DNA from: a virus
Lineage: Duplodnaviria > Heunggongvirae > Uroviricota > Caudoviricetes
Direction: 5' to 3' (one strand)
Virus record (IMG/VR): IMGVR_UViG_3300021426_000065
Coordinates: 103,173 to 167,172 of that record
Length of the DNA stretch: 64,000 bases
Below, in pieces: positions 30,447-50,445 of the stretch (position 1 is the stretch's first letter; every line of letters starts with the position of its first letter). The notes under the pieces were generated by a model. The model saw only the letters and a program-made list of their open reading frames with translations. It ran no database searches and was not told the origin of the DNA. The translations under genes were made by a program, and so were the position numbers.

Positions 30447-31526
30447 ATGGAAGTCAAAGTTGTAATTGGAAGTAATTATGGCGACGAGGGTAAGGGATTG
30501 GTATCGGCAAATCTCGCGCGCGAAGCAAAGCAGGAAAATAAGAAGTCTCTCACTGTATTTTATAATGGCACAGTACAAAGAGCGCATTCTTTTGGAAATA
30601 AAGTACTTCATTGTCTAGCCGCCGGCGAAGAGTTTGGTAGTGATACTTATTATCACCATATGTTCGTCGTAGACCCAATTGCAGTTTGGCTTACACAGTC
30701 TCGTGTATATATTGACCCTAATTGTCGCGTGATTCTACCTTGCGACGTCATGGAAAATCGCAAGGTAGAAAAAGACCGCGGTGACAAGCGCCATGGCTCA
30801 TGTGGATTAGGTCTATTCGCCGCGGTAAAACGTAGTAAAAAATTAGAAGATAATGTTGTAATTAATGATTTTTGTAGTCCATATAATCTGTACTTTAAAT
30901 TAAAAGAAATTGAGCAACGCCATCCAACAGAAAAAGATACATTATATAATATTGATATGTTCATGCGAGCAGTCGCGTGGATTGTGAGTAATTGTAAGAT
31001 TATCACATTTGACGACTTAGTGAAAAATCATCAGTATGATACAATTATTTATGAAGGCGGGCAAGGACTACTACTTGACCAAACTAATATGGATGATTTT
31101 CCGCACCTAACTCCTTCCAGTGTGGGAATGTATAATATTACACATGATATTAATAAATTAAATTGTACGCCCGAACTATTCTATGTTTCGCGCACTTATA
31201 TGACACGGCATGGCGCTGGACCAATGGAGTTTGAGTGCAATAAAGAAGATATTAACCCCAGCATTGTTGATAATGTTAATCAGCCAAATGAATGGCAAGG
31301 TTCTCTACGATTTGGCCGCATTGATTTGAATACGCTTTATCAGCGTATTCAGAAAGATGCCGCGACATATAATAATAATTCAAATATTAATCTTGTCTTT
31401 ACTCAATTAAATTATACAGATAATAAGATTGAGACAAATAATGGACGAGTAGATATTATCAAACCAGATTTTTGTTCAAAGATTTATATTTCAAACGACA
31501 AATATTATATTTTTAATAAGGAGTAA
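30447..31526 (+). CDS. Adenylosuccinate-synthetase-like protein. At 359 aa it is short for PurA, so it is possibly PurZ-like.
   Basis: P-loop VVIGSNYGDEGKGL matches the PurA GDEGKGK motif. The protein is about 70 aa shorter than bacterial PurA. Confidence 0.5.
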   Translation: MEVKVVIGSNYGDEGKGLVSANLAREAKQENKKSLTVFYNGTVQRAHSFGNKVLHCLAAGEEFGSDTYYHHMFVVDPIAVWLTQSRVYIDPNCRVILPCDVMENRKVEKDRGDKRHGSCGLGLFAAVKRSKKLEDNVVINDFCSPYNLYFKLKEIEQRHPTEKDTLYNIDMFMRAVAWIVSNCKIITFDDLVKNHQYDTIIYEGGQGLLLDQTNMDDFPHLTPSSVGMYNITHDINKLNCTPELFYVSRTYMTRHGAGPMEFECNKEDINPSIVDNVNQPNEWQGSLRFGRIDLNTLYQRIQKDAATYNNNSNINLVFTQLNYTDNKIETNNGRVDIIKPDFCSKIYISNDKYYIFNKE

Positions 31527-31528
31527 TT

Positions 31529-32485
31529 ATGTTTATTTTCATTATCGGTATTCTTTTACTAATTGGTTCTATTGTTGCCCTAGTAATAAAAACAGAAGCA
31601 GAATATAAGGCAGTAGTACGAGTAAGTGGAGTTGTAGCATTTATTCTCGCGCTTGTGTTGGTTAGTTTTTCATGCATTTCTTATGTCCCTACCGGCTATA
31701 CTGGTATTGTAACGACATTCGGTAAAGTTCATGACGTAACCCTTGACGCCGGCATTAATTTCCACGCGCCTTGGGATAAGGTAATTACAATGGACAACCG
31801 CGAACAACGTGTTCCATTTACTATGCAGGCATTTTCGTCTGATATTCAGGAAGTATCTATCTCTGGCTCTGTAAACCTAAATATTGATAAGAGTACAGCG
31901 ATGAATCTATATCGTGAAGTAGGTACAAATTACCTAAATATTCTAGTAATGCCACGCATTTCAGAAGAAGTAAAAAGCGTTATTAGCAAATATACCGCCG
32001 AAGGACTTATTGTGAATAGAAATAATCTATCTCTTGAAATGGCTGATTTACTAAAATCCGCGCTGGCGCAGCAAGGTATTAATATCTTATCCGTCGCGGT
32101 TGAAGATGTAGACTTCTCTGATGCTTTTACTAATGCTGTTGAAGCAAAGCAGGTTGCTACACAGGAAAAGCAGAAAGCACAGACCGAACAGGAACGCATG
32201 ACTATGGAAGAAGAAGCGGCTTCAAAGCGTGCCATTATTATTGCTAATGCCGAAGCAGAGAAGGCCAAAATCGCCGCGCAGGCAGACCTTGAAGTCGTAA
32301 AGATTCAGGCCGAGGCCGCGCTATATGCTGGCGAAAAAGAAGCCGAAAAGAATAAGCGTATTGCCGAAGCACTAAGCGACGAACTAATTAAATATTACTG
32401 GATTAAGCAATGGAATGGTAAGCTTCCTACCGTATCCACAGATAATGCCATGTCAATCCTAAATATTCCAGAAATTACAGAATAA
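31529..32485 (+). CDS. SPFH/band-7 (stomatin or prohibitin-like) membrane protein.
   Basis: N-terminal transmembrane helix, SPFH core, Ala/Glu-rich coiled coil. Confidence 0.6.
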   Translation: MFIFIIGILLLIGSIVALVIKTEAEYKAVVRVSGVVAFILALVLVSFSCISYVPTGYTGIVTTFGKVHDVTLDAGINFHAPWDKVITMDNREQRVPFTMQAFSSDIQEVSISGSVNLNIDKSTAMNLYREVGTNYLNILVMPRISEEVKSVISKYTAEGLIVNRNNLSLEMADLLKSALAQQGINILSVAVEDVDFSDAFTNAVEAKQVATQEKQKAQTEQERMTMEEEAASKRAIIIANAEAEKAKIAAQADLEVVKIQAEAALYAGEKEAEKNKRIAEALSDELIKYYWIKQWNGKLPTVSTDNAMSILNIPEITE

Positions 32486-32896
32486 TCCCATGTCTAAAAT
32501 AATCTGGTATGCTTGGATTTATATGCCCAATGGTTATAAAGGAATAATTAAAATTAATTCATATGATAATTTAAGTAGAACTTGTGATATAGTTTTTTCT
32601 GGCGGTATAGCCGCGGAAGTATCAATGAATTGGATACATGCCTGTAATGGATGTATCTTACCTTGGGAAGAAGATAAAAAATGTCAAGATTAATTTCTTG
32701 ACATTTTTTTAAAATTATAGTATAATTAATATATCAAGAGGAAAGGAAGTAGAAAAATGACTTACTTTGAGTTCGTCCGTCGCTTTAATCAGATGTATAC
32801 CATTATTGATGAGACACCAGAAGAACGTATCGCAAGTGCACTTGAACGTATCGCAGACGCAATGGAAAAAGAAAGTCAGAAAGAGGAAAAAGAAAA

Positions 32897-33285
32897 TGGC
32901 TAATTATTTGATTGTCGCGCAGGAAGATATGTATCGGGGCGAGCATGGTATTGAAGATTGGACTATTGAAGATTGTGCTAATGTACAAGAAGCAATTGCT
33001 ATCGGCCGCGAAATGTCATTAGATTTAATTGATTCTTATTGCCAATTTTATAACTCTTATAAAGAAAATGCTGAATGCTGGGCTGACCAGGAAGAAGAGG
33101 ACGGTAAGTTTTTATCTGCCGAAGCAAGAGAAGAGTATATCGCCAATGCAATTGAAGAGCAGCGCGAAGATGCAGTGTATTGTATGTGCTGGAAACTTTC
33201 TGATAAATTTGACTATTCCTCTCTAAACAAAGAAGATATTGATTGGCGCAATATTGCGGATATATATGGCGAGGAGGAATATTAA
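32897..33285 (+). CDS. Acidic hypothetical protein.
   Basis: Shine-Dalgarno then ATG 32897 inside track ORF 32767..33285. Confidence 0.45.
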
Positions 33286-33540
33286 TGACGACTATACTCC
33301 TTGGTTTAATTCTAATTGTACTAGTTTGCTATGTATTAAATGATGATAATATGAGGTATTAATATGAATAAGGAAAACAAAATTAAGGCACTTGAATATC
33401 GTTATAATCTAATTATGAAGCGCGGATTTTACAATAATAAAATTGGTAATAAGATTCTTCGTAAGATTAGAAAGTTGGAGAGAGAGGAATGACTTGGATT
33501 GTTTGGACCTGTATTGGAGTCACAGTCGCGCTCTTTATCT

Positions 33541-34419
33541 ATGCCCTCTGTAAAGCCGGAAATTGGTTCCAAGAATAAAGTTTTTTATTTCACAGACATA
33601 CATGGCCACTTACATTTATGTAATTATATTATAAATTATTGTAATACATTAGACCCAGATTGTGCAATAATTTTCGGCGGTGATGCCTGTGATCGCGGAA
33701 TCTATGGATATGAAATTATGAAAGTTCTTTTAAATAGTGAAAATATAATTTATTTAAAAGGTAATCATGAAGATATGTTCGTTAAAGCTGCGAAAGAATT
33801 TATGGAACATTTTCCTGCTTATGGCAACATGTCTTTAGAAACTATAACACGTATTTTAAAGGGCGTAAATATATTTGATAATAAATATCCAGCATTGCAA
33901 ATATATTTATATAACGGCGGAAAAGAAACATTGATTAATTGGCTTTTGAAAGAACCAAGAAAAGAAGAATTTGTAGAACGAATTAACTCACTTCCTCTAA
34001 CATATTCATATAAAAACATTGATTTCTGTCATGCTGGTGGGGTATATCCAAGTTTTACCAGAGAACAAAAAAATGAATTTGATATGGAGAGTATTTTATG
34101 GAATCGAACCGCCTTTGATTATGGATGGGCCCCCAATAGAATCTGTATTCATGGCCATACTCCCACGCCAGCAATGCCTAAAAGATGTGGCGGCCGAATG
34201 CCTATTCATGAGGCGCATCCGCTGAAATATCGTGGCGATTTTGACGATAAATATACTGGATACAAAATTAACATGGACACAGGAGTGTTCGCTTCTGGAC
34301 GTATTTTTATACTAGATTGCTGTAATTTAATTGCCACTGGTTTTTACGACCATGAAATTAATGATACAGAAAAGCTATCACATAATATAGAAAAAATAAT
34401 AGATATTAATTTATCATAA
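33541..34419 (+). CDS. Calcineurin-like Ser/Thr or diadenosine-polyphosphate phosphatase (PrpE/ApaH-like).
   Basis: Motifs DIHG, GDACDRG, GNHE. Confidence 0.55.
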   Translation: MPSVKPEIGSKNKVFYFTDIHGHLHLCNYIINYCNTLDPDCAIIFGGDACDRGIYGYEIMKVLLNSENIIYLKGNHEDMFVKAAKEFMEHFPAYGNMSLETITRILKGVNIFDNKYPALQIYLYNGGKETLINWLLKEPRKEEFVERINSLPLTYSYKNIDFCHAGGVYPSFTREQKNEFDMESILWNRTAFDYGWAPNRICIHGHTPTPAMPKRCGGRMPIHEAHPLKYRGDFDDKYTGYKINMDTGVFASGRIFILDCCNLIATGFYDHEINDTEKLSHNIEKIIDINLS

Positions 34420-34420
34420 G

Positions 34421-34449
34421 ATGCGGCGTTAAACGCCGCATTTTTTTTG
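34421..34449 (+). terminator. Rho-independent terminator.
   Basis: Stem gatgcggcgtt-aa-acgccgcat followed by T8. Confidence 0.6.
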
Positions 34450-34483
34450 TTATTTTAATACATATTATCTAGGCAGACGGGAG

Positions 34484-34900
34484 GTGGTGTCAATGGAGCA
34501 GGAAGTACTCAATTGGATATGGTCCAATATTTGGAAAATTATTGTTATCTTATCTTTATTTATTGAAATTACACCTATTAAATGGAATCCGTTATCTTCG
34601 GCGTTTAAATGGCTTGGCCGCAAGCTGACCGCGCGAATTGAAGATGACTTATCTGCAATTCATAAAGAAATTGAAGAGAACGAAAAAGACCGTATTCGTT
34701 GGGAAATTTTAGATTTTGCAAACTCATGTCGCAATGGCAGGAAGCACACAAAAGATGAATATTAGCATATAATGACCTTAAATGATAAATATACAAAACT
34801 ACTCGCAAAAACACATGATAAAAATGGTGTTTTTGAAGCAGAATACGAGTATATTAAAAAATTATATGCCGAACGCCAAATGAAAAATGATTTTCTATAA
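34484..34900 (+). CDS. Membrane protein with one in-frame TAG (at 34763), possibly a holin partner.
   Basis: N-terminal transmembrane helix. The frame continues past TAG to TAA. Confidence 0.4.
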
Positions 34901-34912
34901 GGAGGAATTACT

Positions 34913-35122: not shown

Positions 35123-35182
35123 TTACTTGACTTTTTTATTTTTTTATAGTATAATATAAGAAAAGGAATAAGGAGCAAGTAA

Positions 35183-36187: not shown

Positions 36188-36739
36188 ATGAAAGTGATAA
36201 TGATAAGCGGTAAAAGCGGCTCTGGAAAAGATGCCGTAGCAAACGCCTTTGCTCAAAAATTAGAAGCACGAAATAATCAGGTACTAACTATTCATTTCGC
36301 TGATTTAGTAAAATTTTACGCCCTCATTTATTATAAGTGGGACGGCGAAAAGGATGAAGCCGGCCGTAAACTATTGCAAACAATTGGCACCGAAATGATG
36401 CGCACATATGAGCCAGATTATTGGGCTAATATTGTAGCAAAATTTATTGATGCATCAAAAGATGATTTTGATGTTGCATTAATTCCCGATTGGCGTTTCA
36501 TTAATGAATATGAGCGTGTATGCCATTATAACAGTGATGTATGTGCAATTCGTATTGAGCGCTATAATCCAGATGGAACTGCTTATGTCAATCCTAATAT
36601 GACAGCAGAGCAACTACGTCATATCAGTGAAACACAATTAGATAAGTTTGCATTTGATTATATTATTGAAAATCGTGATGGGCTTAAAGCCCTTGAAGAT
36701 TCAGTTGATGTAATTATTGAAGATTTAATGAAGGAGTAA
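36188..36739 (+). CDS. dNMP kinase-like P-loop kinase.
   Basis: Motif ISGKSGSGKD, similar to T4 gp1. Confidence 0.55.
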   Translation: MKVIMISGKSGSGKDAVANAFAQKLEARNNQVLTIHFADLVKFYALIYYKWDGEKDEAGRKLLQTIGTEMMRTYEPDYWANIVAKFIDASKDDFDVALIPDWRFINEYERVCHYNSDVCAIRIERYNPDGTAYVNPNMTAEQLRHISETQLDKFAFDYIIENRDGLKALEDSVDVIIEDLMKE

Positions 36740-37884: not shown

Positions 37885-38490
37885 ATGGCTTTAGATTTTG
37901 ATATTTCCACTCTTTTAGAGTAGGTTGGTTTTAACGCAAAAGATTATCAATATTTTCATCAATTATTAGATAATCGCACCATACTTTTTAATACTTATAT
38001 TGATGAGGATATAGTAGAAAAAATCTATCTACCTCTAAAAGAGTTTGAAAACGATACATCTGTTGAGCCAGTGACACTTATTCTTAACTCTCCTGGTGGC
38101 TCTGTTGCAGATGGTTTCTTTCTAGCACATTACATTGCGCAGTATAAGAAACAATTAAATATAATTGTTCTTGGGTATGCTGCTTCTATGTCCGCAGTAA
38201 TTTTAGCCGCGGGCGGAAAGAATGACAACGTGCATCGTATGTGCTATCCAAGCACCTATGCTTTAGTACATGATGGTTATATTACTATGGAATCTAGCGA
38301 ATCAAAAACCGCGCAAGATTTTATGGCATTTAATGATAAAGTTGATAATGATATTAAAGATTTTATTATTAAAAATACAAATATAACCGCAGAATTATAT
38401 GAGTCAAAAACTAGACATCAATGGTTTATTTCCGCGAAAGAAATGAAAGAATTAAATTTAATTGATGAAATTATTGGAAGTGAAGAATAA
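37885..38490 (+). CDS. ClpP-like serine protease with one in-frame TAG.
   Basis: LNSPGGSV...YAASMSAVILAAG. Shine-Dalgarno GAGGAGG. Same frame as track ORF 38071..38490 across the TAG. Confidence 0.6.
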
Positions 38491-39730: not shown

Positions 39731-42124
39731 ATGGCTAAATCTAAAAAAAAATCAATATCAAATACTTGGGCCCCTACTTTTCCTAGTAGATATATATTTT
39801 TTCAATCTCTTAAAAATGCAAAAGGTTCACTCGGGGGATTAAGTATTCATATGTCAAATGTATTTGGCTCTTTATCAATTAAACAAGAAGAAGAACAAAA
39901 ACGACAATAGTCCTTACAATATATTTCTAATTATATTACAATGCTGACTAAATTAGCAGAAAAGGAACAAAGTCAAGAAAAAAAATATTTACAATCAATT
40001 GCTAGAAATGGATTTGATGAAAATAAATTTAAAAATACTGATGGTAGTTTTAACTATTTAGCTTTTATTAAAGAATTAAATTTGGCTAATAGTAATATTG
40101 AATTTTTACGTAAAACAATTAAAACAAATATTAATAATATACAACAAATTGAATAGGAAATGAAAAAATTTAGTCAACAAGAAGAACGGACATATAAACG
40201 ACTGAAGGTTAATGCTAAAAATAAAGATGATACTATTGATATTGTCACTAATGAAGATGAATATATAAAACATGGCTATGTAGTAGCATATCAAAAATAT
40301 ATTGAAGAAATGTAGAAAAGAGTTAATAGCAGTTATGCAAAAACATTAAATGAATAGTTTACTGCACTAGTAAATAAAGTTATATCTAATATAGCATATA
40401 ATAAAAAAATTTTAACATAGATTACTAATGCCTGCACTAATTTAGGTATTCCTGAATCAGCCTTATTAACTACTATTCAGAACCTATGTGTAGAAGCAGT
40501 AAGATAGGAAGCTTAGAATGTCAAATGGAATTTAAAACAAATTAATGTTAAACAATTAATAAATAATCTTAATGGTACTGCGCAATTAGATTAGTTAATA
40601 GAACGCGCAGCGAATAGTATGGCCAATAAAGTTATGGATTCATAGAATAGTGTAATTCAGCAAATTTTAGATAATAGCTTAAAAGACGGTCGAGGCATTG
40701 CTAAACGTTTAGAAGAGACTCCAGAATCCTTAGATGAGTTACTCAATACAATCGGAGCGAATCAAACAGAAAAAAAATAGATTAAAAAACTTTTTTCTAA
40801 CGATCAAAAAGCCCTAAAAAATAAAAATAATAAAAAAACGAATGGCGCGATTGAACGAGCAGAATTAAAATTAACTTAGACTCGTCATCAATTGACAAAA
40901 GAGATAAATAGAATTATTAAAAAAATAGATAATAAAACATATTCTAAAAAAGAAGAGCGTGAAATAGCAGTTAATAAAATTATTTCTACATATATTTCAT
41001 CTTCAACTCCGGCTACAGTATAGCAGGCATTAATTAATTCACTTTCTTCAAGACTCAAGGTAACAAATTTATCAGATAATTCCGCGGCAGAAATACTAAG
41101 TAGCCCTGAATTTCATAATTTTCTACAAAATCATATTACAGATATATTTATTCCAGGAAAATCTATTCAATATAAACATGATTTAGCTTTTGGAGTATCT
41201 TTATAGCCACTAGAAGATACATAGTTATTAAAATATTTTACTAATATGCCATATTGGATAGAAACATACGCAGAAGAACGAGGAAGACTATTCTTAGAAG
41301 CTTATAAAGCAACTGCTGGTGGAGCAACTAGTGTATCACTCGCAGCAGAAGCCTATCGTAATGTTTTGTCAGCAAGTTTAGCGTCAAAAAAAGCTATGTT
41401 GGTCCAAGCAGATGAGAATTTACACGATAAAATTGAAGAATATTTTTCTGGACAATTAGATGGCGCAATTTCTGTTAAAGAATACAAATTCTATGATAAT
41501 AATCAAGGATTTCACGCGGGTTCATTGGGTGGAAGCGGAAAAGTAGTAGATGCTATTCCGTAGATTGCTTAGATGTTAGAATTAGGCGGAATCACATTAC
41601 CAGATACTGAATTAATAATTGATGCCTTATTAAACTGTTTTAGTGAATCTTTAATTGGCGATACTGGCCTTTTAGATGATTTAAAAAGTTTATTAATAGG
41701 TGGAGCAGCAATGATGCTTTTTGATGATGGCTTTGCCAACTGTGAAAATTTTATTAATAGATTAGTAAGTGAATTTCAACTTTCTAACGCTAAAGAACTT
41801 CCTACCGGTGGTAGTGTTCATATATTATATTTAAATAATATTTATATGCCACAATCTTATATATTATTCAACGTTATTGATCAGTTAAAAAAAATTCAGG
41901 CCGATTTAAATGGAGATGTTTTTGAGCCCTCCGAAGCCCAAAATAGTTTATACTTAAACAATCCAATGTCGGAAAGCATGTTAAAAGAAGTAGAAAATTT
42001 ACCCACTCCTGCAGAGCGATGGAATGCAATTTCTAGTTATGCACAAGAAAATGTTACAATTCATTTTCTTTTTATGGCAGGAATGCTCGATATTCTCCAA
42101 AGTTTAGAAAATTTAGGTATATAA
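39731..42124 (+). CDS. Protein of about 797 aa that is extremely TAG-rich (about 27 TAG codons), probably a virion or internal protein.
   Basis: Track ORFs 39941.., 41246.. and 41573.. share the frame of ATG 39731. Only TAG interrupts the frame. TAA stop and terminator. Confidence 0.5.
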
Positions 42125-42375: not shown

Positions 42376-43041
42376 ATGAATAAAGAACCACTTGGATACT
42401 TAGGCGGCGATATTATGACACATGGCTCTAATCTCGCACGCCAAGAAGAATATGATAAATTCAAAGCCGCGGGAATACCAGGTGAAGTATATAGCCCGGT
42501 TTAGAATAAATCCATTAATGATAAGTCTAGTATGACAGAAGAAGAAAATAATCACTTGGCGGAAAAAATCTGCGAAGCGGATATTGAACGTCTTTGGAAT
42601 AGTGATTATACTGTTTTATGTCCAGAGCAGAGCGCCATTGGTACTATGTGTGAGATGGGCGTATTGTATGGATGGAAATATATGGCAGATAAATTGCTCG
42701 ATTTAGAAGAAGCTTTTATAGAAGAACATCGCCAAGAATTTGATGAAGGAAATAAAGAGCATTGTCTAGAATTAGTTAATGAAATGCACAATAAAGTATG
42801 GGAAGAAATTTATCGTATTCTTACCAAAAAAAATTATGCTCATTATTTTGATATTCGCACAAACCATCTTAATGAAAAAGATTGGCGTCGTAGCTTTTCC
42901 ATTAATTAGATGTTATATGGCATGATTTTATATGCAACAGCAGACCATACTTTACATAATTCATTTGATGAAATACTACCAATTCTTCAAAAACAATATA
43001 GCGTTAAAAACAATGAAGAATTAAATTCAGAATGGAGATAA
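42376..43041 (+). CDS. Nucleoside 2-deoxyribosyltransferase-like protein with 2 in-frame TAG codons.
   Basis: Motif LGYLGGDI..HG. Track ORF 42532..42909 extended in frame. Confidence 0.4.
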
Positions 43042-43220
43042 TATGAGAGACTCACATCGTATTAACAAAATTTGTGATATGCTAGCCGCGGCTTGGAGCA
43101 ATGTCCCAGATTGGCGGCTGGCTCAACTTATGTCTAATATTTTTGCAACAAAAGATTGTTTCTATATGGAAGATAAAGAATTTATTGAATATATTGAAAA
43201 ATATATTGAAGGAGTAAAAA

Positions 43221-44507
43221 ATGGAAAGTAATATGTTATATAATATTAATGATAAACTACCAATAAAACGCTTAATTGTGGCGGCATTACAGCAAGTTGT
43301 TGCTTGCTTTGTCGCAACAATTCTTATTCCTCAAATTTGCGGCCTACCTATCGCGCCCGCAATGCTTGGCGCCTGTATTGGCACTCTTATCTATCAGCTA
43401 TGTACACGTGGTCAAAGCCCCATGTTTATTAGTTCTTCTGGCGCATTTGTTGCCGCGGTAATTGGCGGACTTGCATTAGGCGCGACTCCAAATTATACCG
43501 CAGTAGCAATTGGCGGCGCCATTGTATGTATTGTTTATTGCGCTATTGGTGCAATTATCAATAAATGCGGCACCAATTGGATGAATAAAGTTTTGCCGCC
43601 CGTTGTTATTGGCCCAATCGTTGCAGTTATTGGTCTAAATCTTGCTACATTTATTCCAACTTACTTCCAAATTAATGGTGAATATAGTTTACTTGGCGTT
43701 GGACTTGGTATGCTAACATTAGCAATTACCGCGTTAATTTCGCACTATGGTAAGGGATTTATTAAAAATCTACCATTCCTATTTTCTATTTTAATTGTAT
43801 ATGCTTTCGCCGCGGTATTAACTGCTTGTGGCGTACCAATTATTGATTTCTCCGTATTTAATAATGTAAAGCTAATTCAAATCCCCGATTTTGCTTTTAT
43901 GCATTTTGCCGCGTTTGATTGGACACTACTACCCCAGATTCTAATGTTATTCTTACCACTATCATTAGTTACAATCGCGGAACACACCAGTGACCATAAG
44001 GCTTTAAGCGCTGTTATTGGCATAGACCTAACGCAGAATCCTGGACTTGGCAAGACTCTAATTGGCGATGGTATTGCTACCGCAGCCGGGTGTGTTATTG
44101 GCGGACTACCCAATACAAGCTATGGCGAAAGTGTTGGAACCACTGGTTTTAGCAAGATTTGCTCTCGCTATGTAATTAGTCTCGCCGCCGTTATTATGGG
44201 CGTTGCTGCATTCTTTGGACCACTTCAAGCCTTCTTAGTAAGTATTCCAAGCTCAATTTTCGGCGGCTGTGCCGCGGTTCTTTATGGATATATTACTTTG
44301 TCCGGTATTCGTACCATTAAGGATAATAATATTGACCTAAATAATAATAAGAATGTCACAATCATTGCTTCTGTTTTAACTCTTGGCGTTTCCGGTGCGG
44401 TTTGTAATTTTGGTATTGTAAGCATTGGAACCACTGCACTTGCAATGCTTGTTGGTATTATTTTAAATCTTATTTTAAAGGAGAAAAAAGATGAGAAACT
44501 TTCTTGA
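43221..44507 (+). CDS. NCS2-family nucleobase permease, copy 1.
   Basis: Twelve or more transmembrane helices, Gly-rich NCS2 motifs, EHTSDHKA. Confidence 0.6.
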   Translation: MESNMLYNINDKLPIKRLIVAALQQVVACFVATILIPQICGLPIAPAMLGACIGTLIYQLCTRGQSPMFISSSGAFVAAVIGGLALGATPNYTAVAIGGAIVCIVYCAIGAIINKCGTNWMNKVLPPVVIGPIVAVIGLNLATFIPTYFQINGEYSLLGVGLGMLTLAITALISHYGKGFIKNLPFLFSILIVYAFAAVLTACGVPIIDFSVFNNVKLIQIPDFAFMHFAAFDWTLLPQILMLFLPLSLVTIAEHTSDHKALSAVIGIDLTQNPGLGKTLIGDGIATAAGCVIGGLPNTSYGESVGTTGFSKICSRYVISLAAVIMGVAAFFGPLQAFLVSIPSSIFGGCAAVLYGYITLSGIRTIKDNNIDLNNNKNVTIIASVLTLGVSGAVCNFGIVSIGTTALAMLVGIILNLILKEKKDEKLS

Positions 44508-45798
44508 TTCACATTTCCATATTACCGAGCGCGGTTCAACTATTGGCCGCGAAGTAATTGGTGGACTCGTTACCTTCCTTACGATGGCATACATTCTAGT
44601 TGTTAATCCATCTATTCTTGGAGCAACTGGTATGGATTATACTGCACTGGTAGTTGCAACAGCACTAGCTTCTGCAATTGGCACGCTATTAACCGGCTTT
44701 ATTGCCAACGCGCCAATTGGACAAAGCACCGGATTGGGCGTTAATGCGTTTTTCGCTTATACGCTATGTTTAAAAATGGGCTATACTTGGCAGCAATGCC
44801 TTGGTATTACATTTATTAGCGGCCTTGTATTCCTTGGCATTATGCTTTCGCCACTTCGTAACAAAATCATTGATGTTATTCCAGCCGCGCTAAAACGCGC
44901 AATTAGTGTTGGTATCGGCTTATTTGTTACTTTAATTGCTTTCTTTAATGCCGGTATTATTCAGACTGCCAATGGCATCCTAGACCTTGGTCTAATTACT
45001 TCTGGTCCTGGTCTGCTAGCTATTATCGGTCTAGCAATTACAGCACTACTAATGATTTTCAAAGTAAAAGGCGCAATTCTTATCGGTATTATCGCCGCGA
45101 CACTAATTGGTATTCCAATGGGAGTAACAAATGTTAATATTACTTCTCTTGCCAGTATAAGTGTAGCGCCAGTATTCTTTAAACTATCTTTTACTGGTTT
45201 ACTATCTGCTGGTGTTGTGCCGCTACTTACTTCTATTTTTACACTTGCAATTATTGATACTTTCGATTCTGTCGGTACACTTACCGCAACACTTGCTGAA
45301 TGTGATATGATTGATGAGAACGGTGAAGTCAAAGATAAGACTATGACAAAAGCATTAATTGCTGACGCGGCGGCAACCTGCACTGGCGCACTTACGGGCG
45401 TTAGCACTATCACAAGTTTCGTAGAATCCAGCGCCGGTATAGCAGCGGGAGCACGCACAGGACTAGCCTCAATCGTAACTGGTATTTTATTCTTACTTTC
45501 TTGCGTGCTTGCTCCATTCGCTGGTGTCGTTCCATCAGCAGCAACAGCCGCGGCATTAATTATCGTTGGCATTCTAATGTTTAAGAATGTAAAATACATT
45601 GATTGGACAGATTTAGAAATTGCCATTCCAGCATTTCTAACAATTGTCGCAATGCCTTTTACATATTCAATTTCTAATGGGCTTGGATTTGGATTTATTT
45701 CTTATGTATTAATTAAAATGGTACGTGGAAAGTTTAAAGAAATCCATCCGCTTATGTATGTTCTCGCGGCATTATTCGTATTAATGTTTATTCTATAA
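44491..45798 (+). CDS. NCS2-family nucleobase permease, copy 2.
   Basis: Polytopic membrane protein, paralogue of the upstream gene. Confidence 0.6.
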   Translation: MRNFLDSHFHITERGSTIGREVIGGLVTFLTMAYILVVNPSILGATGMDYTALVVATALASAIGTLLTGFIANAPIGQSTGLGVNAFFAYTLCLKMGYTWQQCLGITFISGLVFLGIMLSPLRNKIIDVIPAALKRAISVGIGLFVTLIAFFNAGIIQTANGILDLGLITSGPGLLAIIGLAITALLMIFKVKGAILIGIIAATLIGIPMGVTNVNITSLASISVAPVFFKLSFTGLLSAGVVPLLTSIFTLAIIDTFDSVGTLTATLAECDMIDENGEVKDKTMTKALIADAAATCTGALTGVSTITSFVESSAGIAAGARTGLASIVTGILFLLSCVLAPFAGVVPSAATAAALIIVGILMFKNVKYIDWTDLEIAIPAFLTIVAMPFTYSISNGLGFGFISYVLIKMVRGKFKEIHPLMYVLAALFVLMFIL

Positions 45799-45909
45799 TT
45801 GATTAAAAATAAAATTTATGTTATAATTTAATAGAAATGAAATGAAGAAATATTACCTATCTTATGATAGGAATATTTCTTTTTACTAGGGAGGTGCCAA
45901 AAACGTCAA

Positions 45910-46095
45910 ATGATACAAGAAATTATTAACAAATACTATGATTTTATTAAACAAAAAGGATGGACTTATCAGCTCGCGGCGGAAAAAATAGAATGTAGCC
46001 GCACACATCTAGGTCGTATTTTTAATGGGTTGCGAGTGCCATCTATGACCTTATTAATGAGAATGGAAGAGGTTATGAAGAATGACAGAGATTAA
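45910..46095 (+). CDS. Small HTH (XRE-like) regulator.
   Basis: QLAAEKIECSRTHLGRIFNG. Confidence 0.5.
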   Translation: MIQEIINKYYDFIKQKGWTYQLAAEKIECSRTHLGRIFNGLRVPSMTLLMRMEEVMKNDRD

Positions 46096-46287
46096 AACCT
46101 ATAAAATTTATACTCGTTGGCTAGCATTTGCATTACGCAAGCAAGGCTTTAAAATTATTAGCACGGATATAAATGAATATCATCCACAATTTGATGTCTG
46201 GCTATTTGAAGATAGCCCAGAATTGCAGGCCGCAATATCTAAGCTCAGTAAGAATCATAAGCAAAGCGGCTGAGGAGGAACCAAAGT

Positions 46288-46665
46288 ATGCCAAATTATA
46301 TGAACCAATTACGTCTAAATCTTACAGAATTAGATAAAATAACACATAAAGAAGGAAACCGTTTTATTCAACCTATTGATTTTAAATGGGAAGCCGCGGC
46401 GATGCGCAACTTAAACGGAAATGCTTATAAAATCTGGCGTTATCTTTTACGCTGGTATGGCAAAGATTATTTCTACTTTTCTCCCGCGGCAATAAGAAAA
46501 GAATTAGGACTTGGAGAGAATGGTGCCACATCCGCGCGAAAAGAACTTGAAGCCAAAGGATATATTACACCAGTAGAGGGAAAAGAAAATGTATATACTT
46601 TTACTCCTGTGCTGCCAGTGGATTATGAAAATTTAAAAAATAAAAAAGATTTAACTGATGGATAA
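46288..46665 (+). CDS. Winged-helix replication-initiator-like protein.
   Basis: HTH segment AAIRKELGLGENGATSARKELEAKGYI, next to iterons. Confidence 0.5.
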   Translation: MPNYMNQLRLNLTELDKITHKEGNRFIQPIDFKWEAAAMRNLNGNAYKIWRYLLRWYGKDYFYFSPAAIRKELGLGENGATSARKELEAKGYITPVEGKENVYTFTPVLPVDYENLKNKKDLTDG

Positions 46666-46666
46666 C

Positions 46667-46850
46667 CACGAAAATCGTGGCATTCATTGCATCAAAAATC
46701 GTGGCATTCATCCACGAAAATCGTGGAAGGTATACACGAAAATCGTGGCATTGCCACGAAAATCGTGGATATGTCCACGAAAATCGTATGAGTAATATAA
46801 ATATAATATAAATATAAATAAAAATATTAAATAAAAACAATAAATAAAAA
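46667..46850 (+). repeat. Iteron array (CACGAAAATCGTGG, 5-6 copies) followed by a more than 90% AT stretch, a putative replication origin.
   Basis: Direct 14-bp repeats at 46667, 46713, 46735, 46754 and 46776, with a variant at 46695. Then the AT-rich tract ATATAAATATAAATAAAAAT. Confidence 0.6.
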
Positions 46851-49582
46851 TATGGTCGCCGCGCGACTTAAAAGGAGAAATTTTATGAATACAGATGATG
46901 AATTTTTAGAAGAACAGACAAAAGAACAAATTATTATCTTTCTTCACAATACTGAATATGAATTAGAAAGTTTACGTAAACGTATGGAAAAATTAACTGG
47001 CTGCCGTGAATTTGGTGCTATGGATAGTATGAACGGTAATTGTATAGAATGTTTTTATGATGATAAAAAACTTTTTGAAAAATGTGAAAAATTTAAACTT
47101 GACAAAAAATAAAATTTAGTGTATAATAAAGAAAAAGAAGAAAGGAAGTATGATTATGGGAATGGATTTGTATATCTTTAAAGCGCGAACTCGTAAGGTT
47201 TTTGAAACAGATAATTGGTATAATTCTGATGCAGTAACAGAAGTGCTTTATGCACGTAAATGGTGGAGCCTTGTAGAGCATTGCTCATTTATTCCAGAAG
47301 ATTACGAAAGCGGCGATTATATTGAACTCACTTATGATAATATTGAAGAAATGATTAAAGTTGCCTGTGAATATCCAGATTATTGGGATGATTATACTAA
47401 TGTTCCTATTCTTTGTCGTATGCGTGATTCTTTTCAAGAAATTACCGAAGAGGGCTACCATTACTACCTTGAATATGATTGGTGATTAATATGAATTTAA
47501 AGACAATACAAGAATATTTTCCTATGGAAAAAACTTTAATTGGTTTCTATTCTACTGACCAAAGTTTTGAAGCGCATTGCTTTGAGGATGTAAAAAATAT
47601 TGATAGATGGCCGTTCCCACCGCTAGATTGGGCAACAGGATGTTATCCTTTTATTTATTATAACAAAGAACGGGATGAGTTTGAATGCTGGATGTTTGCC
47701 GCGTGGCCAGTACAAGGATACTATACTGATGATGTTTATGGTGAAGACTACCAGTTAATCACTAATGAGCCTGATTTTGGTATAGAAATTGTTGACCCAT
47801 TTGACCATGATGAATACCATATTGTTTTTAAGCCCTATGCCGAAGATGATTATGAAGAAAAAATTCTTCAATTATATGCTGATAATGAATATCGCCAGCA
47901 AATAGAACTTGCGGCTTATAGATGGAATCCAGAAGCATATATGGATGGAAAAATTATGACTACTTATGACGCGGTTAAAAATTTTTGTGCAAATATGGAA
48001 GAGAGTAAGGCATGAGAAAACTTTATTATAAATTAAAATTTATGCTTTTTAAATTAAAATTTAAAATACAGAAAAAATTTTATACAGTATCGCCGCGTGG
48101 CGAGTATATGATTAAATATCTTATAGATAGATATATAAATTGTACTGCACTGGAAGATAATGAAATTTATGAATCGTCTCTGCGTCCATATGTAGAAAAA
48201 CACGCAAATAAAATTTCAAATGAATTATTTAAAAATGTTCCAGAAGTATTAATAGATGATTTAAAACAATACCATTGTATCTTTGCTTATTTATGTTCAT
48301 TGCTATTATTTTCTAAAGATAAACGAGAGTGGCTAGATTATATTAATAATGAAAAAATACGCGCATTAGTTGCAGAAACAATAGGAGATTAATTATGAAA
48401 ACAGTAATTCGCAGCCGTGATAGCGGCAAAGCAAAAGAACTACTACAATACGCGCGCGATAATAATGCTTTTGTAGTTAGTCAAAACAAACGCGCGCTTC
48501 AAGTAAAAGCAAAGGCATTAGGATATGATGACGTAATGATTATAGATTATGAAGATTTGTCTAATGAAATATTTGAAGGTAATATTGTAATTCATAATGT
48601 AGATAAATGGTTAAAAGAAATTTTTTATAATACTTATGGTCTTAATGTAATCGGTTTTAGCGCGACAGAGGAATAATATGAGAACAATAATAGATTTTAA
48701 TACTCATGAAAATTTTCAAGTATGTAATAGCGCAGACGAATTAAATAAAATTATTACTGACACTATCACCTATTATCAAGATATAGCAAAGCGCGCCGAA
48801 GATAAAGCCGCGAAAACAAGAGAACAAGTCGCGGCCGAAATACATAATGAGTTTGAAGAAGAAAATAAATCCTTGCGGGCACGGTTACATTTTTCTTATG
48901 GTAGCTTTCATACTGAAAAAGAATTAAATAAATGGAAAGATTTTTGTGAGCGCCATCAAGATTGTTGGGATGGCAGCAAAATTAGCTCTGGTCGTGCATT
49001 TTATATTAAACCATACAATACTGGATTTAGTACTGGTTATGTCGCAGTTTGTCCGTATTGCGGAGTAGAAGAAGATATAAGTGATACAAGTTGGTGGTAA
49101 TTTATGAAGAAAGAACTATTAAAACAATTAGAATCACTACGTATTGACGTAGATACAGAAACTCAGTATTGTGACCCGACTGGTGAGCTTCGTGCGCGAT
49201 ATGAAAAAGCCAATGAAATGCTAGATGAATGTATTTCAATAGTTGATAAACATGTGGTTGACAATTATAATTATTATGAAGATGAAAAATCACGAATCTA
49301 TGATTATTGTCGCGAAAACAATCTTTCACTAACAGATGAAGACTTAGCGGATACATTATGGGACGTTGATTATATCACAGGCAATCAAACTGGATATGAT
49401 ACAGAAGAAAATTGTCAGATTTATGTTGGACAAAATTTAGACTTAGCCAAAGAAGCATTAGACTCATTTGGCACAAGTTTTAAAGATATTCCAGAAGATA
49501 ATCCCGCAACTTATATAGACGCTACTATTCGTTGTTATTTACTACAAGAGTTGATCTGGGAATTACAGGAGGAAAATACTTG

Positions 49583-49981
49583 ATGAAAAATAAATTGATT
49601 CCTATTATAACCATAGTCTTTTTACTACTATTTACATCTCTTTCTATTGGAGAAGAGCAAGAAATTTCTAATGTTATTAAACCCGACCCATCCATTGAAT
49701 TAATTACACCAACTCCCGCCCCAACGCCAGAGCCTACTCCAATACCTAAAAGAGTAACAATCGCTACAAATCGTAAATCAGTAATGGAAGAGGGTGCGAC
49801 AGTTACACTAACTAGTAAACTAGAAGGATTTGAAGACTGTGAAGAAATCCATTATCAGTGGCAACGAGACCGCGGTAATGGTTTTGAGGATATGCCAGGT
49901 GCTACATCCAGTACATATAGTTTCCCAGCAACCGCAGAATCACTTTGCTGGGGATGGCGTTTAATTGTTTATTATAGATAA
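49583..49981 (+). CDS. Secreted or anchored Pro/Thr-rich protein.
   Basis: Signal-peptide-like N terminus, PTPAPTPEPTP linker. Confidence 0.45.
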   Translation: MKNKLIPIITIVFLLLFTSLSIGEEQEISNVIKPDPSIELITPTPAPTPEPTPIPKRVTIATNRKSVMEEGATVTLTSKLEGFEDCEEIHYQWQRDRGNGFEDMPGATSSTYSFPATAESLCWGWRLIVYYR

Positions 49982-49995
49982 AGAAAGGAAAGAAA

Positions 49996-50445
49996 ATGAA
50001 AATTTATTTAGCGGGTCCTTGCGATAGCGAAAATCGTAGTCTAATGGTCGCGGCGGCAAAAATTCTTCGTAAGTATGGGTTAGAAATTTATTGCCCGTTT
50101 GAGCTTAAAATTGAAAATGCTTGGGATTACCCGCAGGAAGAATGGGCACAGAAAGTGTTTGAGAAAGATGTAGAAGCTATTAACAAATGTGATTGTATGC
50201 TTTATATTAGTCGCGGCCGCATGTCTTCTGCTGGAAGTAACTGGGAACAGGGTTATGCTTATGCACTAAAAAAGCGTATCGTAGTGCTTCAAATTGAAGA
50301 TGTACCTACATCGCTTATGACATTCTGTGGCTGTGATTTGTTCTTTAATATTGATGATATTAATGAGTTGCCGTTAGTAATTAAAATTATTGAAGATAAT
50401 GATTATGACAATTATATTAAAAGTTGTTCTACTATTTTGACATAA
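49996..50445 (+). CDS. Nucleoside 2-deoxyribosyltransferase-family protein.
   Basis: MKIYLAGP...E motif. Confidence 0.55.
   Translation: MKIYLAGPCDSENRSLMVAAAKILRKYGLEIYCPFELKIENAWDYPQEEWAQKVFEKDVEAINKCDCMLYISRGRMSSAGSNWEQGYAYALKKRIVVLQIEDVPTSLMTFCGCDLFFNIDDINELPLVIKIIEDNDYDNYIKSCSTILT

What the first reader, a model, noticed from the sequence alone, without database searches (positions are those of the whole stretch)
30447..50445. Nucleotide-salvage gene set: short PurA-like (possibly PurZ), two NCS2 nucleobase permeases, two NDT-like proteins, dNMP kinase, HD-like hydrolase
Two tandem NCS2 transporters (43221, 44491) are rare in phages. The 359-aa PurA-like protein has the GDEGKGK P-loop but is shorter than cellular PurA, as PurZ of 2-aminoadenine (Z-genome) phages is. 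Two nucleoside 2-deoxyribosyltransferase-family proteins (42376, 49996), a dNMP kinase (36188) and a His-rich HD-like protein (25587, a possible DatZ-like dATPase) could belong to a base-modification or salvage pathway.
Basis: inference. Interest (0 to 1): 0.6.

Follow-up and report, generated by a model that had tools for sequence, protein, structure and literature searches.

The report
PurA-like enzyme cassette, not PurZ
The genes are real, but the short PurA-like protein is not the PurZ enzyme of 2-aminoadenine phages: it is the enzyme of a widespread, unnamed three-gene cassette shared by gut Clostridia and several unrelated large phages, and the base transporters and base-swapping enzymes nearby form a separate salvage module.

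Summary
Every listed gene exists. The window is a large phage with all genes on the + strand. TAG is read as Gln in a subset of its genes, which is why NDT1 looked broken.

The PurZ reading fails each test made here:
- Asp13 is kept (GDEGKG); all PurZ/PurZ0 have Ser.
- The NCBIfam PurZ model scores 26.8 bits against a cut-off of 300.
- A profile of the clade scores bacterial PurA at 36-64 bits and phiVC8 PurZ at 11.9.
- In an NJ tree the clade is monophyletic (100/100) and never sister to PurZ.

It is not canonical PurA either (48 bits against a cut-off of 402). The phosphotransfer residues are kept, but the IMP-phosphate, aspartate and guanine ligands are replaced by other invariant residues.

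The gene is the last of a tight trio: a Met-rich protein (29043), a vWA-like protein (29597) and the PurA-like protein (30447). The trio recurs in all related phages, in Vibrio Va1, Rhizobium RHph_Y65 and gut contig MT835469. All 80 Clostridia loci examined have the vWA-like/PurA-like pair, and 21 sit next to an NrtR-type regulator. Its function is unknown and it has no annotation.

The UraA-type and AzgA-type permeases, two NDT-family proteins and the dNMP kinase are a plausible salvage set. DUF5662 is not DatZ-like and belongs to an RNA-repair cluster.

The parts
29043..29594 (+). Met-rich protein (183 aa), first gene of the trio: a conserved N-terminal beta-rich domain of about 120 aa, a Met-rich segment and an acidic C-terminal tail
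29597..30445 (+). vWA-like protein (282 aa) with a MIDAS-like motif DVTGSMG and a later TLGDE; second gene of the trio
   Evidence: phrog_2971 4.6e-49, function unknown. No Pfam or PDB match, even with family profile A4. hhalign against the window's own TROVE/vWA protein gives only 12% probability but aligns DVTGSMG with DVSGSMW. It lies directly upstream of the PurA-like gene in 80/80 bacterial loci, or separated only by a second vWA-like paralogue, and also in Va1 and RHph_Y65 (37% and 36% identity). At least 7160 homologues, none named.
30447..31526 (+). PurA-like NTP-dependent ligase (359 aa); third gene of the trio; neither PurA nor PurZ
   Evidence: Pfam PF00709 8.2e-17. NCBIfam PurA models 35-48 bits against cut-offs of 368-445; PurZ model 26.8 against 300. 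AF2 pLDDT 87.7 and pTM 0.88; Foldseek top hits are canonical PurA, E about 1e-14, TM 0.66-0.72. Residue map, tree. About 1966 clusters at 50% identity match the clade profile at E<=1e-30.
31529..32485 (+). SPFH/Band-7 protein (318 aa), packed 2 nt after the PurA-like gene; an accessory neighbour, not part of the core
   Evidence: PF01145 2.8e-31. Present after the trio in L004-L007 and L013, absent there in L008-L011.
36188..36739 (+). dNMP kinase (183 aa)
   Evidence: PF21448 6.8e-12, phrog_139 7.3e-35.
42376..43041 (+). NDT-family protein 1 (221 aa, read through two TAG=Gln codons)
   Evidence: In-frame TAG at 42502-42504 and 42907-42909. phrog_1817 3.4e-36 across both TAG positions. PF05014 24.6 bits, below the 28.8 cut-off. 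Tyr/Asp/Glu triad seen by eye. 89% identical in L096 with both TAGs kept.
43221..44507 (+). NCS2 permease, UraA (uracil/pyrimidine) type, 428 aa
   Evidence: PF00860 3.8e-62. NCBIfam uracil permease 257 bits against a cut-off of 477. PDB UraA 3qe7 4.8e-54.
44491..45798 (+). NCS2 permease, AzgA (adenine/guanine/hypoxanthine) type, 435 aa; overlaps the preceding gene by 17 nt
   Evidence: PF00860 9.5e-39. PDB AZG1 8irl 1.2e-52. phrog_27398 3.1e-128, labelled 'tail protein' there, which conflicts with the permease matches. 38-44% identical to bacterial yieG-type permeases.
49996..50445 (+). NDT-family protein 2 (149 aa)
   Evidence: PF05014 1.4e-17, 64.3 bits against a cut-off of 28.8. PDB NDT 8qc0 9e-8, with the nucleophile Glu aligned. 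Conserved in L097 at 62%.

Best explanation
The 20-kb stretch holds two unrelated things.

(1) 29043-31526 is a self-contained, horizontally mobile three-gene cassette: a Met-rich beta-barrel protein, a vWA-like MIDAS protein and a PurA-fold enzyme. The enzyme keeps the PurA machinery for moving the gamma-phosphate of an NTP onto a substrate oxygen and then displacing it with an amine (Asp13, Lys16, His41, Gln224). Its ligands for the IMP 5'-phosphate, for L-aspartate and for the guanine of GTP are replaced by other residues that are invariant within the clade. It is therefore most likely an active ligase that joins an amine other than aspartate to a 6-oxopurine-type nucleotide other than plain IMP, working in a complex with, or controlled by, the other two proteins. 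It makes neither adenylosuccinate nor the PurZ product. Its neighbours suggest a link to nucleotide, NAD or ADP-ribose metabolism in phage-host conflict. That link and the ligase chemistry are inferred, not shown.

(2) 42376-45798, together with 49996-50445 and 36188-36739, is a base-salvage set. A uracil-type and an adenine/guanine-type permease would import free bases. Two NDT-family enzymes would swap bases on deoxyribose or deoxyribose 5-phosphate. A dNMP kinase would pass the products on. Family membership is shown; the pathway is inferred.
For: Cassette:
- The three genes are separated by 2 nt and 1 nt.
- The trio recurs in all IMG/VR relatives. It is 90-97% identical even where flanking genes are about 50% identical (L008, L010).
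- Human-gut contig MT835469 has the trio and, within 20 kb either side, no other shared gene except a weak SPFH match.
- Vibrio phage Va1 and Rhizobium phage RHph_Y65 carry all three kinds of gene.
- In 80/80 Bacillota genome loci the vWA-like gene lies upstream. The first gene is either the Met-rich type (16-18 loci) or a Zn-ribbon protein of about 330 aa (50-56 loci).
- The two isolate loci examined lie among two-component, TRAP-transporter and STAND-like genes, not in prophages.

Enzyme:
- PurA fold with high model confidence.
- Invariant in 77 bacterial members and the phage members: G12, D13, E14, G15, G17 and (76/77) K16; H41; Q224; T239 (76/77).
- Changed: N38 to Q, T128/T129 to S/C, R143 lost, V273 to H, T300 to an aromatic residue or His, T301 to Q, R303 to S/T/A, K331 to H/Q, D333 to N or D.
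- Far below the curated PurA and PurZ cut-offs.
- Monophyletic 100/100. About 1966 clusters at 50% identity at E<=1e-30.

Context:
- An NrtR-type regulator (NUDIX + NrtR_WHD) is adjacent in 21/80 loci.
- A NADAR gene (9.7e-49) lies just upstream in Va1. PRTase_3, HAD, a Nudix gene annotated as NMN adenylyltransferase/NUDIX hydrolase, and HIRAN lie alongside in RHph_Y65.

Salvage set: family assignments. The permease pair and NDT2 are kept in relative L097 at 41%, 68% and 62% identity. A phage transporter-plus-enzyme pair that restores a depleted metabolite has a published precedent, NARP3 (PMC13464706).
Against: - No substrate, product or phenotype is known for any member of the trio.
- No profile search confirms the vWA assignment; it rests on a motif and a 12%-probability hhalign match.
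- The residue map depends on a MAFFT alignment at about 20% identity and is least reliable in the aspartate loop and the C-terminal third.
- I could not inspect the ligand pockets of the AF2 model.
- 59 of 80 bacterial loci have no NrtR-type gene within 6 kb.
- NrtR-like regulators also control sugar use (AraR), so the NAD/ADP-ribose link is weak.
- The NADAR and PRTase neighbours could be coincidental in gene-dense phage early regions.
- Whether the bacteria with the trio also have a normal purA was not tested.
- For the salvage set, no nucleoside kinase, phosphorylase or phosphoribosyltransferase was found in the window to complete a pathway.
- The two NDT-family proteins are not similar to each other or to DmtZ.
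Confidence: 0.55

Rival explanations
1. PurZ and a Z-genome: the enzyme condenses dGMP with aspartate to start dZTP synthesis, helped by a DatZ-like dATPase and an NDT-family DmtZ-like enzyme.
For: The protein is short, like PurZ, and aligns with a 4-residue gap in the aspartate loop as PurZ does. PHROG 1211, which holds PurZ, matches at 1.6e-36. NDT-family enzymes (DmtZ) do take part in Z synthesis in PurZ0 phages (PMC12884076).
Against: - Asp13 is kept in the window protein, its phage relatives and 77/77 bacterial members. phiVC8, S-2L, Wayne and MaF61 all have Ser, as do 100% of 147 published phage PurZ/PurZ0 sequences.
- The PurZ HMM scores 26.8 against a cut-off of 300.
- The clade profile scores phiVC8 PurZ at 11.9 bits (E 0.7) and does not list S-2L PurZ or PurZ0.
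- Sister to PurZ in 0 of 100 bootstraps.
- The PurZ-specific insertion after TRVG is absent.
- DUF5662 is unrelated to DatZ.
- NDT1 and NDT2 are not similar to Wayne DmtZ (E 0.09-0.14).
- The same enzyme sits in the chromosomes of Clostridia isolates.
Confidence: 0.02
2. An ordinary auxiliary PurA: the phage boosts AMP/dATP supply by converting IMP to adenylosuccinate, matching its A+T-rich genome and the purine importer.
For: Best sequence and fold matches are canonical bacterial PurA. D13, K16, H41, Q224 and T239 are kept. An AzgA-type permease could bring in hypoxanthine.
Against: - 48 bits against an equivalog cut-off of 402.
- The aspartate-pocket positions V273, T300, T301 and R303 are all replaced, as are the phosphate ligands N38, T129 and R143.
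- The guanine ligands K331 and D333 are Q and N in the window protein.
- It is linked to a vWA-like gene in 80/80 bacterial loci and in four phage lineages, which a housekeeping step would not need.
- No hypoxanthine phosphoribosyltransferase was found in the window to make IMP.
Confidence: 0.1
3. The trio is a bacterial conflict (anti-phage or stress) system that large phages also carry. A swappable first protein senses a trigger, the vWA-like protein couples it, and the PurA-like enzyme is the effector that depletes or converts a nucleotide.
For: The first component varies (Met-rich or Zn-ribbon type, and some loci have two vWA-like paralogues) while the pair stays constant. It occurs patchily as a small island next to a STAND-like NTPase in L050. 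It behaves as a mobile cassette among unrelated phages. NrtR-like sensors and vWA proteins occur in predicted ADP-ribose conflict systems (PMC9503650).
Against: No PADLOC match for any component. The neighbours examined are mostly ordinary metabolic and regulatory genes. No nuclease, pore or other classic effector was seen. Enrichment in defence islands was not measured.
Confidence: 0.2
4. The trio serves NAD+/ADP-ribose homeostasis or reconstitution: in bacteria it is switched on by an ADP-ribose-sensing NrtR, and in phages it counters NAD+-depleting immunity.
For: An NrtR-type regulator is adjacent in 21/80 loci. NADAR is adjacent in Va1. PRTase_3, HAD and a Nudix gene annotated as NMN adenylyltransferase/NUDIX hydrolase are adjacent in RHph_Y65. 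Phage NAD+ reconstitution pathways exist, NARP1-3.
Against: No NAD-pathway enzyme family matches any trio protein. No NAD-related gene was found in the window. Keeping Asp13 and Gln224 points to a 6-oxopurine rather than a ribose or pyridine substrate. Most loci lack the regulator.
Confidence: 0.12

Closest known systems
Adenylosuccinate synthetase PurA (E. coli type; PF00709, TIGR00184)
   Same: Same fold (Foldseek E about 1e-14, TM 0.66-0.72). Same P-loop GDEGKG with the catalytic Asp13, plus Lys16, His41, Gln224, Thr239 and the TR-x-G-x-GP motif.
   Different: - About 22% identity; 35-48 bits against curated cut-offs of 368-445.
- About 70 residues shorter, with a different C-terminal third.
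- Replaced: N38, T128/T129, R143, V273, T300, T301, R303, K331, D333.
- Always paired with a vWA-like gene.
PurZ / PurZ0, succino-amino-deoxyadenylate synthase of Z-genome phages (NF038379; PDB 6FM1, 7ODX, 7VF6)
   Same: Phage-borne, short form of the same superfamily. Lys18 is replaced by Leu in both.
   Different: Asp rather than Ser at position 13. No insertion after TRVG. 18% identity. PurZ HMM 26.8 against 300. Separate clade. No DatZ, MazZ, DutZ or DmtZ partner found. Also chromosomal in Clostridia.
vWA-containing multi-gene conflict or chaperone systems (vWA-MoxR ternary systems; the ARG-centred systems with Nudix regulators and vWA chaperones predicted in PMC9503650)
   Same: A MIDAS-motif protein coupled to an NTP-using protein and a variable third component. 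A Nudix-wHTH regulator is often adjacent.
   Different: The NTP-using partner is a PurA-fold enzyme, not a MoxR AAA+ ATPase or an ADP-ribosylglycohydrolase. The vWA assignment itself is unconfirmed.
NARP3 (phage PnuC-like transporter plus NadR-like enzyme; PMC13464706)
   Same: A phage-encoded importer next to a salvage enzyme: the window has two NCS2 permeases next to an NDT-family gene.
   Different: Different transporter family and different metabolite (nucleobases, not nicotinamide riboside). No experimental evidence here.
NDT superfamily: nucleoside 2-deoxyribosyltransferases, DNPH1/Rcl dNMP hydrolases, DmtZ
   Same: NDT2 passes the PF05014 cut-off and aligns its nucleophile Glu with solved NDTs. 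NDT1 matches phrog_1817. Both show the Tyr/Asp/Glu triad by eye.
   Different: No significant similarity to Wayne DmtZ or to each other. Whether they act on nucleosides or on dNMPs is undecided. The small uncharged residues before the Glu (SSAGSNWE, QSAIGTMCE) resemble the 5'-phosphate class, but that is inference only.

Membership tests
PurZ / PurZ0 | Ser in place of PurA Asp13 in the P-loop (100% of 147 phage sequences; PMC12884076) | tested here: not met
   The window protein has GDEGKG. Asp is invariant in 77/77 bacterial and all phage clade members. phiVC8 GSTGKG, S-2L GSTGKG, Wayne GSEAKG.
PurZ / PurZ0 | Score above the curated cut-off of NCBIfam NF038379 (amino_Aden_PurZ) | tested here: not met
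   26.8 bits against a cut-off of 300.
PurZ / PurZ0 | Groups with PurZ, PurZ0 and archaeal PurA in similarity searches and trees | tested here: not met
   Clade profile: phiVC8 PurZ 11.9 bits, archaeal PurA 23.7, bacterial PurA up to 64. NJ tree: own clade 100/100, sister to PurZ 0/100. Foldseek ranks PurZ0 26th and PurZ 33rd or lower.
PurZ / PurZ0 | Co-occurrence with DatZ, or with MazZ/DUF550/DUF5664, or with DutZ/DmtZ, and a DpoZ polymerase | tested here: inconclusive
   No HD/DatZ, MazG, dUTPase or DUF5664 gene among the window ORFs scanned. DUF5662 is unrelated to DatZ. The NDTs are unlike DmtZ. No DNA polymerase gene lies in this 64-kb window, so DpoZ cannot be judged.
PurZ / PurZ0 | Makes dSMP from dGMP + Asp; Z replaces A in virion DNA | not testable with these tools
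   Needs an enzyme assay and LC-MS of virion DNA.
PurA (adenylosuccinate synthetase) | Score above the NCBIfam/TIGRFAM equivalog cut-offs | tested here: not met
   NF002223 48.3 against 402; TIGR00184 41.4 against 395.55; archaeal-type NF003295 35.3 against 368.
PurA (adenylosuccinate synthetase) | Catalytic residues Asp13, Lys16, His41, Gln224 | tested here: met
   D13, H41 and Q224 are invariant across the clade; K16 is K in 76/77 bacterial members and all phage members (A2 invariants).
PurA (adenylosuccinate synthetase) | IMP 5'-phosphate ligands Asn38, Thr129, Arg143', Thr239 | tested here: not met
   Q38 and C129 are invariant substitutions, R143 is not conserved, only T239 is kept. Depends on the alignment.
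PurA (adenylosuccinate synthetase) | L-aspartate pocket Val273, Thr300, Thr301, Arg303 (my recollection of the E. coli PurA structure and mutagenesis literature; no paper on this was read here) | tested here: not met
   H273 (77/77), W/Y/H/F at 300, Q301 (77/77), S/T/A at 303; R305 is kept. The alignment is least certain in this loop.
PurA (adenylosuccinate synthetase) | Guanine-specific Lys331 and Asp333 | tested here: not met
   The window protein has Q and N (FTQLNY). Bacterial members have H, and N (49) or D (26).
NCS2 nucleobase:cation symporters | Pfam PF00860 above the gathering score | tested here: met
   210.6 and 133.6 bits against a cut-off of 27.
Uracil permease UraA (equivalog) | NCBIfam NF007995 above its cut-off | tested here: not met
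   257.4 against 477 for 43221-44507. Closest solved relative is UraA, 4.8e-54. UraA-like, substrate not established.
NDT superfamily | PF05014 above its cut-off, and the Tyr/Asp(Asn)/Glu catalytic triad | tested here: met
   NDT2: 64.3 against 28.8, with Glu aligned to solved NDTs. NDT1: 24.6 against 28.8 (below), but phrog_1817 3.4e-36. Triad read by eye in both.
DmtZ | Sequence similarity to Wayne/Ghobes DmtZ | tested here: not met
   BLASTP E 0.09-0.14 against the Wayne NDT-Dut protein.
DatZ (HD dATPase) | HD domain; similarity to phiVC8 DatZ | tested here: not met
   25587-26174 is DUF5662 with no HD match in Pfam, no PDB match at E<=10, and BLASTP E 3.0 against DatZ.
vWA domain | Match to a vWA profile or structure; MIDAS motif DxSxS...T...D | tested here: inconclusive
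   The motif D71-x-T-x-S75 and T176-x-G-D179 are invariant (A4). No Pfam or PDB match. hhalign probability is 12% with the MIDAS motifs aligned.
dNMP kinase | PF21448 above its cut-off | tested here: met
   45.9 against 27.1; phrog_139 7.3e-35.

The most novel reading that the evidence does not exclude
The PurA-like clade is a third functional branch of the adenylosuccinate-synthetase superfamily. It would be a GTP/ATP-dependent ligase that attaches an amine other than aspartate to a 6-oxopurine nucleotide (or activates a different oxygen, such as one on ADP-ribose). It would be active only in a complex with a vWA-like adaptor and an exchangeable sensor protein, and would be used by Clostridia and by large phages on opposite sides of a conflict over nucleotides, NAD or ADP-ribose.
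Probability: 0.3. Interest if true: 0.85.

Novelty: new variant of a known kind. Interest (0 to 1): 0.62.

Why it matters
PurA and PurZ are the only functions known for this fold, and PurZ opened the field of Z-genomes. Here there is a third large clade: about 2,000 clusters at 50% identity, with no name in any of the libraries searched. Its catalytic core is intact, its substrate pockets are rebuilt, and it is always linked to two unannotated partner proteins.

The clade occurs in Clostridia genomes and MAGs from gut and rumen, and in phages of Vibrio and Rhizobium and of unknown gut hosts. That makes it a concrete, testable candidate for a new nucleotide-modifying reaction or a new conflict system. 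Culturable entry points exist: Hungatella effluvii DSM 24995, Lachnospiraceae AC2031 and NE2001, and Vibrio phage Va1.

It also warns against a specific annotation error. Pharokka/PHROG-style labels already call these genes '2-aminooxy adenylosuccinate synthetase' in Va1-like and Rhizobium phages, which wrongly implies Z-DNA.

The tandem pyrimidine and purine importers next to an NDT-family gene add a second example, after NARP3, of a phage bringing its own uptake system.

Tried and rejected
- Nucleotide search of the 20-kb region against phage records: no match.
- PADLOC scan of the trio and its bacterial versions: nothing usable.
- PDB sequence search with the vWA-like protein, alone and as a family profile: nothing.
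- PDB search with the Zn-ribbon partner: only Zn-ribbon noise.
- Literature searches for a PurA-like/vWA pairing, and for a PurA-like enzyme in NAD+ reconstitution: none found. The 2016 RNA-repair survey I wanted was not found under the PMC id I recalled.
- I considered the trio as part of the adjacent RNA-repair cluster. Rejected as a core link, because the bacterial loci and MT835469 carry the trio without RNA-repair genes.
- I considered SPFH as a fourth core gene. Rejected, because it is absent after the trio in L008-L011.
- I considered NDT1 a pseudogene. Rejected, because TAG is a sense codon here, the relative keeps both TAGs, and the PHROG match spans them.

Full report
**What the window is.** All substantial ORFs lie on the + strand, and 17 tRNA genes sit at 8.4-20.4 kb. 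The window encodes tail fibres, ClpP, PhoH, DNA ligase, RNase H, gyrase A and B, SSB and a DnaB-type helicase, so it is a large phage. Near-identical and related contigs in IMG/VR reach 164-172 kb. No annotated phage record matches at nucleotide level.

**TAG recoding.** With the standard code several long genes fall apart. If TAG is read as sense, clean ORFs appear with 4-16 in-frame TAGs each: 144-1361, 1374-4646, 5312-7300, 20490-21146 and 39731-42124. Most other genes have none. Where window TAG codons align with a different codon in relatives, that codon is CAA or CAG in 9 of 11 cases, so TAG means Gln. No suppressor tRNA lies in the window. This bears on the finding.

The family assignments are:
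- PurA-like, 30447-31526: Pfam PF00709 8.2e-17.
- Two NCS2 permeases: 3.8e-62 and 9.5e-39.
- NDT2: 1.4e-17.
- dNMP kinase: 6.8e-12 (all).

The permeases are of different kinds. The first is UraA-like (PDB 3qe7, 4.8e-54). The second is AzgA-like (adenine/guanine permease AZG1, 1.2e-52). The phage database holds very few NCS2 genes, and by their names and annotation most of the records look like bacterial contamination. The 'HD-like' protein is DUF5662, with no HD match and no similarity to DatZ.

**Is the PurA-like protein a PurZ? No.**
- Published work defines the PurZ/PurZ0 group by Ser in place of PurA Asp13 in 100% of 147 phage sequences, and reports that S14D abolishes substrate selectivity (PMC12884076; bioRxiv 10.1101/2025.10.22.683976).
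- The window protein reads GDEGKG. The PurZ references I fetched read GSTGKG (phiVC8, S-2L) and GSEAKG (Wayne).
- The NCBIfam PurZ model gives 26.8 bits against a cut-off of 300.
- phiVC8 PurZ finds S-2L PurZ, PurZ0 and archaeal PurA in the PDB at 88-219 bits. The window protein finds none of them at E<=0.001, only bacterial PurA.
- A profile of the window's clade scores bacterial PurA at 36-64 bits, archaeal PurA at 23.7 and phiVC8 PurZ at 11.9.
- The AF2 model (pLDDT 87.7) is closest to canonical PurA. PurZ0 ranks 26th and PurZ 33rd or lower.
- In an NJ tree of 31 sequences the clade is monophyletic in 100/100 bootstraps and never sister to PurZ.

**Is it an ordinary PurA? Also no.** It reaches 35-48 bits on models whose cut-offs are 368-445. 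I mapped it onto E. coli numbering together with 77 bacterial relatives.
- Kept: the phosphotransfer and base-activating residues D13, K16, H41 and Q224, plus T239.
- Replaced by other clade-invariant residues: Q38, S128, C129, H273, Q301.
- R143 is lost and R303 becomes S/T/A. Position 300 becomes aromatic or His. K331 and D333 become H/Q and N/D.

As I recall the E. coli PurA literature, these positions bind the IMP 5'-phosphate (38, 129, 143), L-aspartate (273, 300, 301, 303) and guanine (331, 333). No paper on this was read here. The simplest reading is the same chemistry on different substrates. The alignment is at about 20% identity and is weakest in the aspartate loop and the C-terminal third.

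**The unexpected part: a conserved cassette.** The gene is the last of three tightly packed genes: 29043-29594, 29597-30445 and 30447-31526.
- The middle protein has an invariant DxTxS...TxGD pattern like a vWA MIDAS site. It has no Pfam, PDB or PADLOC match and only a weak hhalign link to the window's own TROVE/vWA protein. I call it vWA-like, unconfirmed.

The trio is present in every related IMG/VR contig that reaches far enough upstream. It is 90-97% identical even where flanking genes are about 50% identical. The closest GenBank hit, a 176-kb human-gut contig, has the trio and almost nothing else in common nearby. Vibrio phage Va1 and Rhizobium phage RHph_Y65 have the vWA-like and PurA-like pair (31-37% identity) with a Met-rich protein of the same layout upstream. 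In RHph_Y65 a HIRAN gene lies between the Met-rich and vWA-like genes.

A scan of one genome per species found at least 583 loci. The best 80 are nearly all Bacillota (Lachnospiraceae, Ruminococcus, Oscillospiraceae) and include isolate genomes.
- In 80 of 80 the vWA-like gene lies directly upstream, sometimes duplicated.
- The gene before it is either the Met-rich type or a Zn-ribbon protein of about 330 aa.
- In two isolates the surroundings are ordinary chromosomal genes.
- In 21 of 80 loci an NrtR-type regulator (NUDIX plus NrtR winged helix) is adjacent.
- In Va1 a NADAR gene lies just upstream. In RHph_Y65, PRTase_3, HAD and Nudix genes lie upstream.

The clade is large: 1,966 representatives of 50% clusters at E<=1e-30. 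There are 4,046 and at least 7,160 homologues of the two partners, none with a name. Full-text searches found no paper that pairs a PurA-like enzyme with a vWA protein.

**What it most likely does.**
- Shown: fold, retained catalytic residues, replaced ligand positions, gene linkage, distribution.
- Inferred: an active NTP-dependent ligase that activates an oxygen on a 6-oxopurine-type nucleotide and displaces it with an amine that is not aspartate. It would work with or be gated by the vWA-like protein and an exchangeable first component.

A constant pair with a swappable first gene, cassette mobility, and neighbours that handle ADP-ribose or NAD make a role in nucleotide, NAD or ADP-ribose conflict the best guess. 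That step is weak. Rivals (ordinary PurA, defence effector, NAD+ homeostasis, PurZ) are scored separately.

The UraA-type and AzgA-type permeases overlap by 17 nt and follow NDT1. The pair plus NDT2 survives in a relative at 41-68% identity, so it is under selection. Both NDT-family proteins show the Tyr/Asp/Glu triad. NDT2's Glu aligns with solved NDTs. Neither resembles DmtZ, nor each other. With the dNMP kinase this is a plausible route of base import, base exchange and phosphorylation. NARP3 is a published precedent for a phage importer-enzyme pair. No assay supports the pathway.

DUF5662 belongs elsewhere. Its start overlaps the stop of RlaP, within a run made up of a P-loop kinase, a phosphoesterase, a TROVE-like protein, RlaP, DUF5662 and an RNA ligase at 21.2-29.0 kb. 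That is the layout of phage RNA-repair systems described in PMC7824862.

Noticed in passing
window 144-1361, 1374-4646, 5312-7300, 20490-21146, 37885-38490, 39731-42124, 42376-43041, 58946-59836, 60106-60948: TAG is a sense codon (Gln) in a subset of genes, mostly tail-fibre-like and a few others, with up to 16 in-frame TAGs per gene. Most replication and metabolism genes have none. In relatives, window TAG aligns with CAA or CAG in 9 of 11 substitutions. None of the 17 tRNAs in the window is a suppressor.
   Followed up: partly
window 39731-42124: A 797-aa ORF, visible only with TAG read-through (16 TAGs), lies inside the finding's span. It has no Pfam match and is only 39% identical over 334 aa in the close relative L096.
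   Followed up: partly
window 21208-29021: An RNA-repair cluster lies directly upstream of the trio: a P-loop kinase (AAA_33), a metallophosphoesterase, a TROVE-like DUF2828/DUF7788 protein, an RlaP nucleotidyltransferase, DUF5662 (its start overlaps the RlaP stop) and an RNA ligase with a PHA02142 OB domain.
   Followed up: partly
window 8452-20431: 17 tRNA genes are interspersed with small ORFs and homing-endonuclease genes (HNH at 13507-13980, GIY-YIG at 18148-18801). A LAGLIDADG gene at 60106-60948 sits between SSB and a Sak4-like ATPase.
   Followed up: no
window 32676-32726: A perfect 12/12 sigma-70 consensus (TTGACA, 17 nt, TATAAT) overlaps a hairpin with a 14-bp stem, immediately after the trio + SPFH + 67-aa ORF block. 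Overall promoter-like counts in the region are not above the shuffles.
   Followed up: no
L095 3968-5311 (Flavobacterium phage MaF61, PQ858689.1, ORF141): This 'putative adenosuccinate synthetase' has GSSGKG, with Ser at the Asp13 position, and groups with PurZ in the NJ tree. It lies between the scaffold and terminase genes. It could mark a Z-genome phage of Flavobacterium.
   Followed up: partly
L002 7986-9098 (Vibrio phage Va1 group) and L003 7986-9236 (Rhizobium phage RHph_Y65 group): RefSeq and Pharokka-style records label these clade members '2-aminooxy adenylosuccinate synthetase', the PurZ label. They keep Asp13 and belong to the vWA-linked clade, so the label is probably wrong.
   Followed up: yes
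window 44491-45798: PHROG 27398, which this AzgA-type permease matches at 3e-128, is annotated 'tail protein'. That conflicts with the permease matches in Pfam and the PDB.
   Followed up: partly
window 51462-52640: An Eco57I-type N6-adenine DNA methyltransferase lies just upstream of the gyrase genes and is 89% identical in the distant relative L097.
   Followed up: no
L050 7298-11191 (Lachnospiraceae bacterium AC2031): A 1297-aa STAND-like NTPase (weak AAA_16 and NPHP3_N matches) sits between the trio and its NrtR-type regulator in this isolate genome.
   Followed up: no
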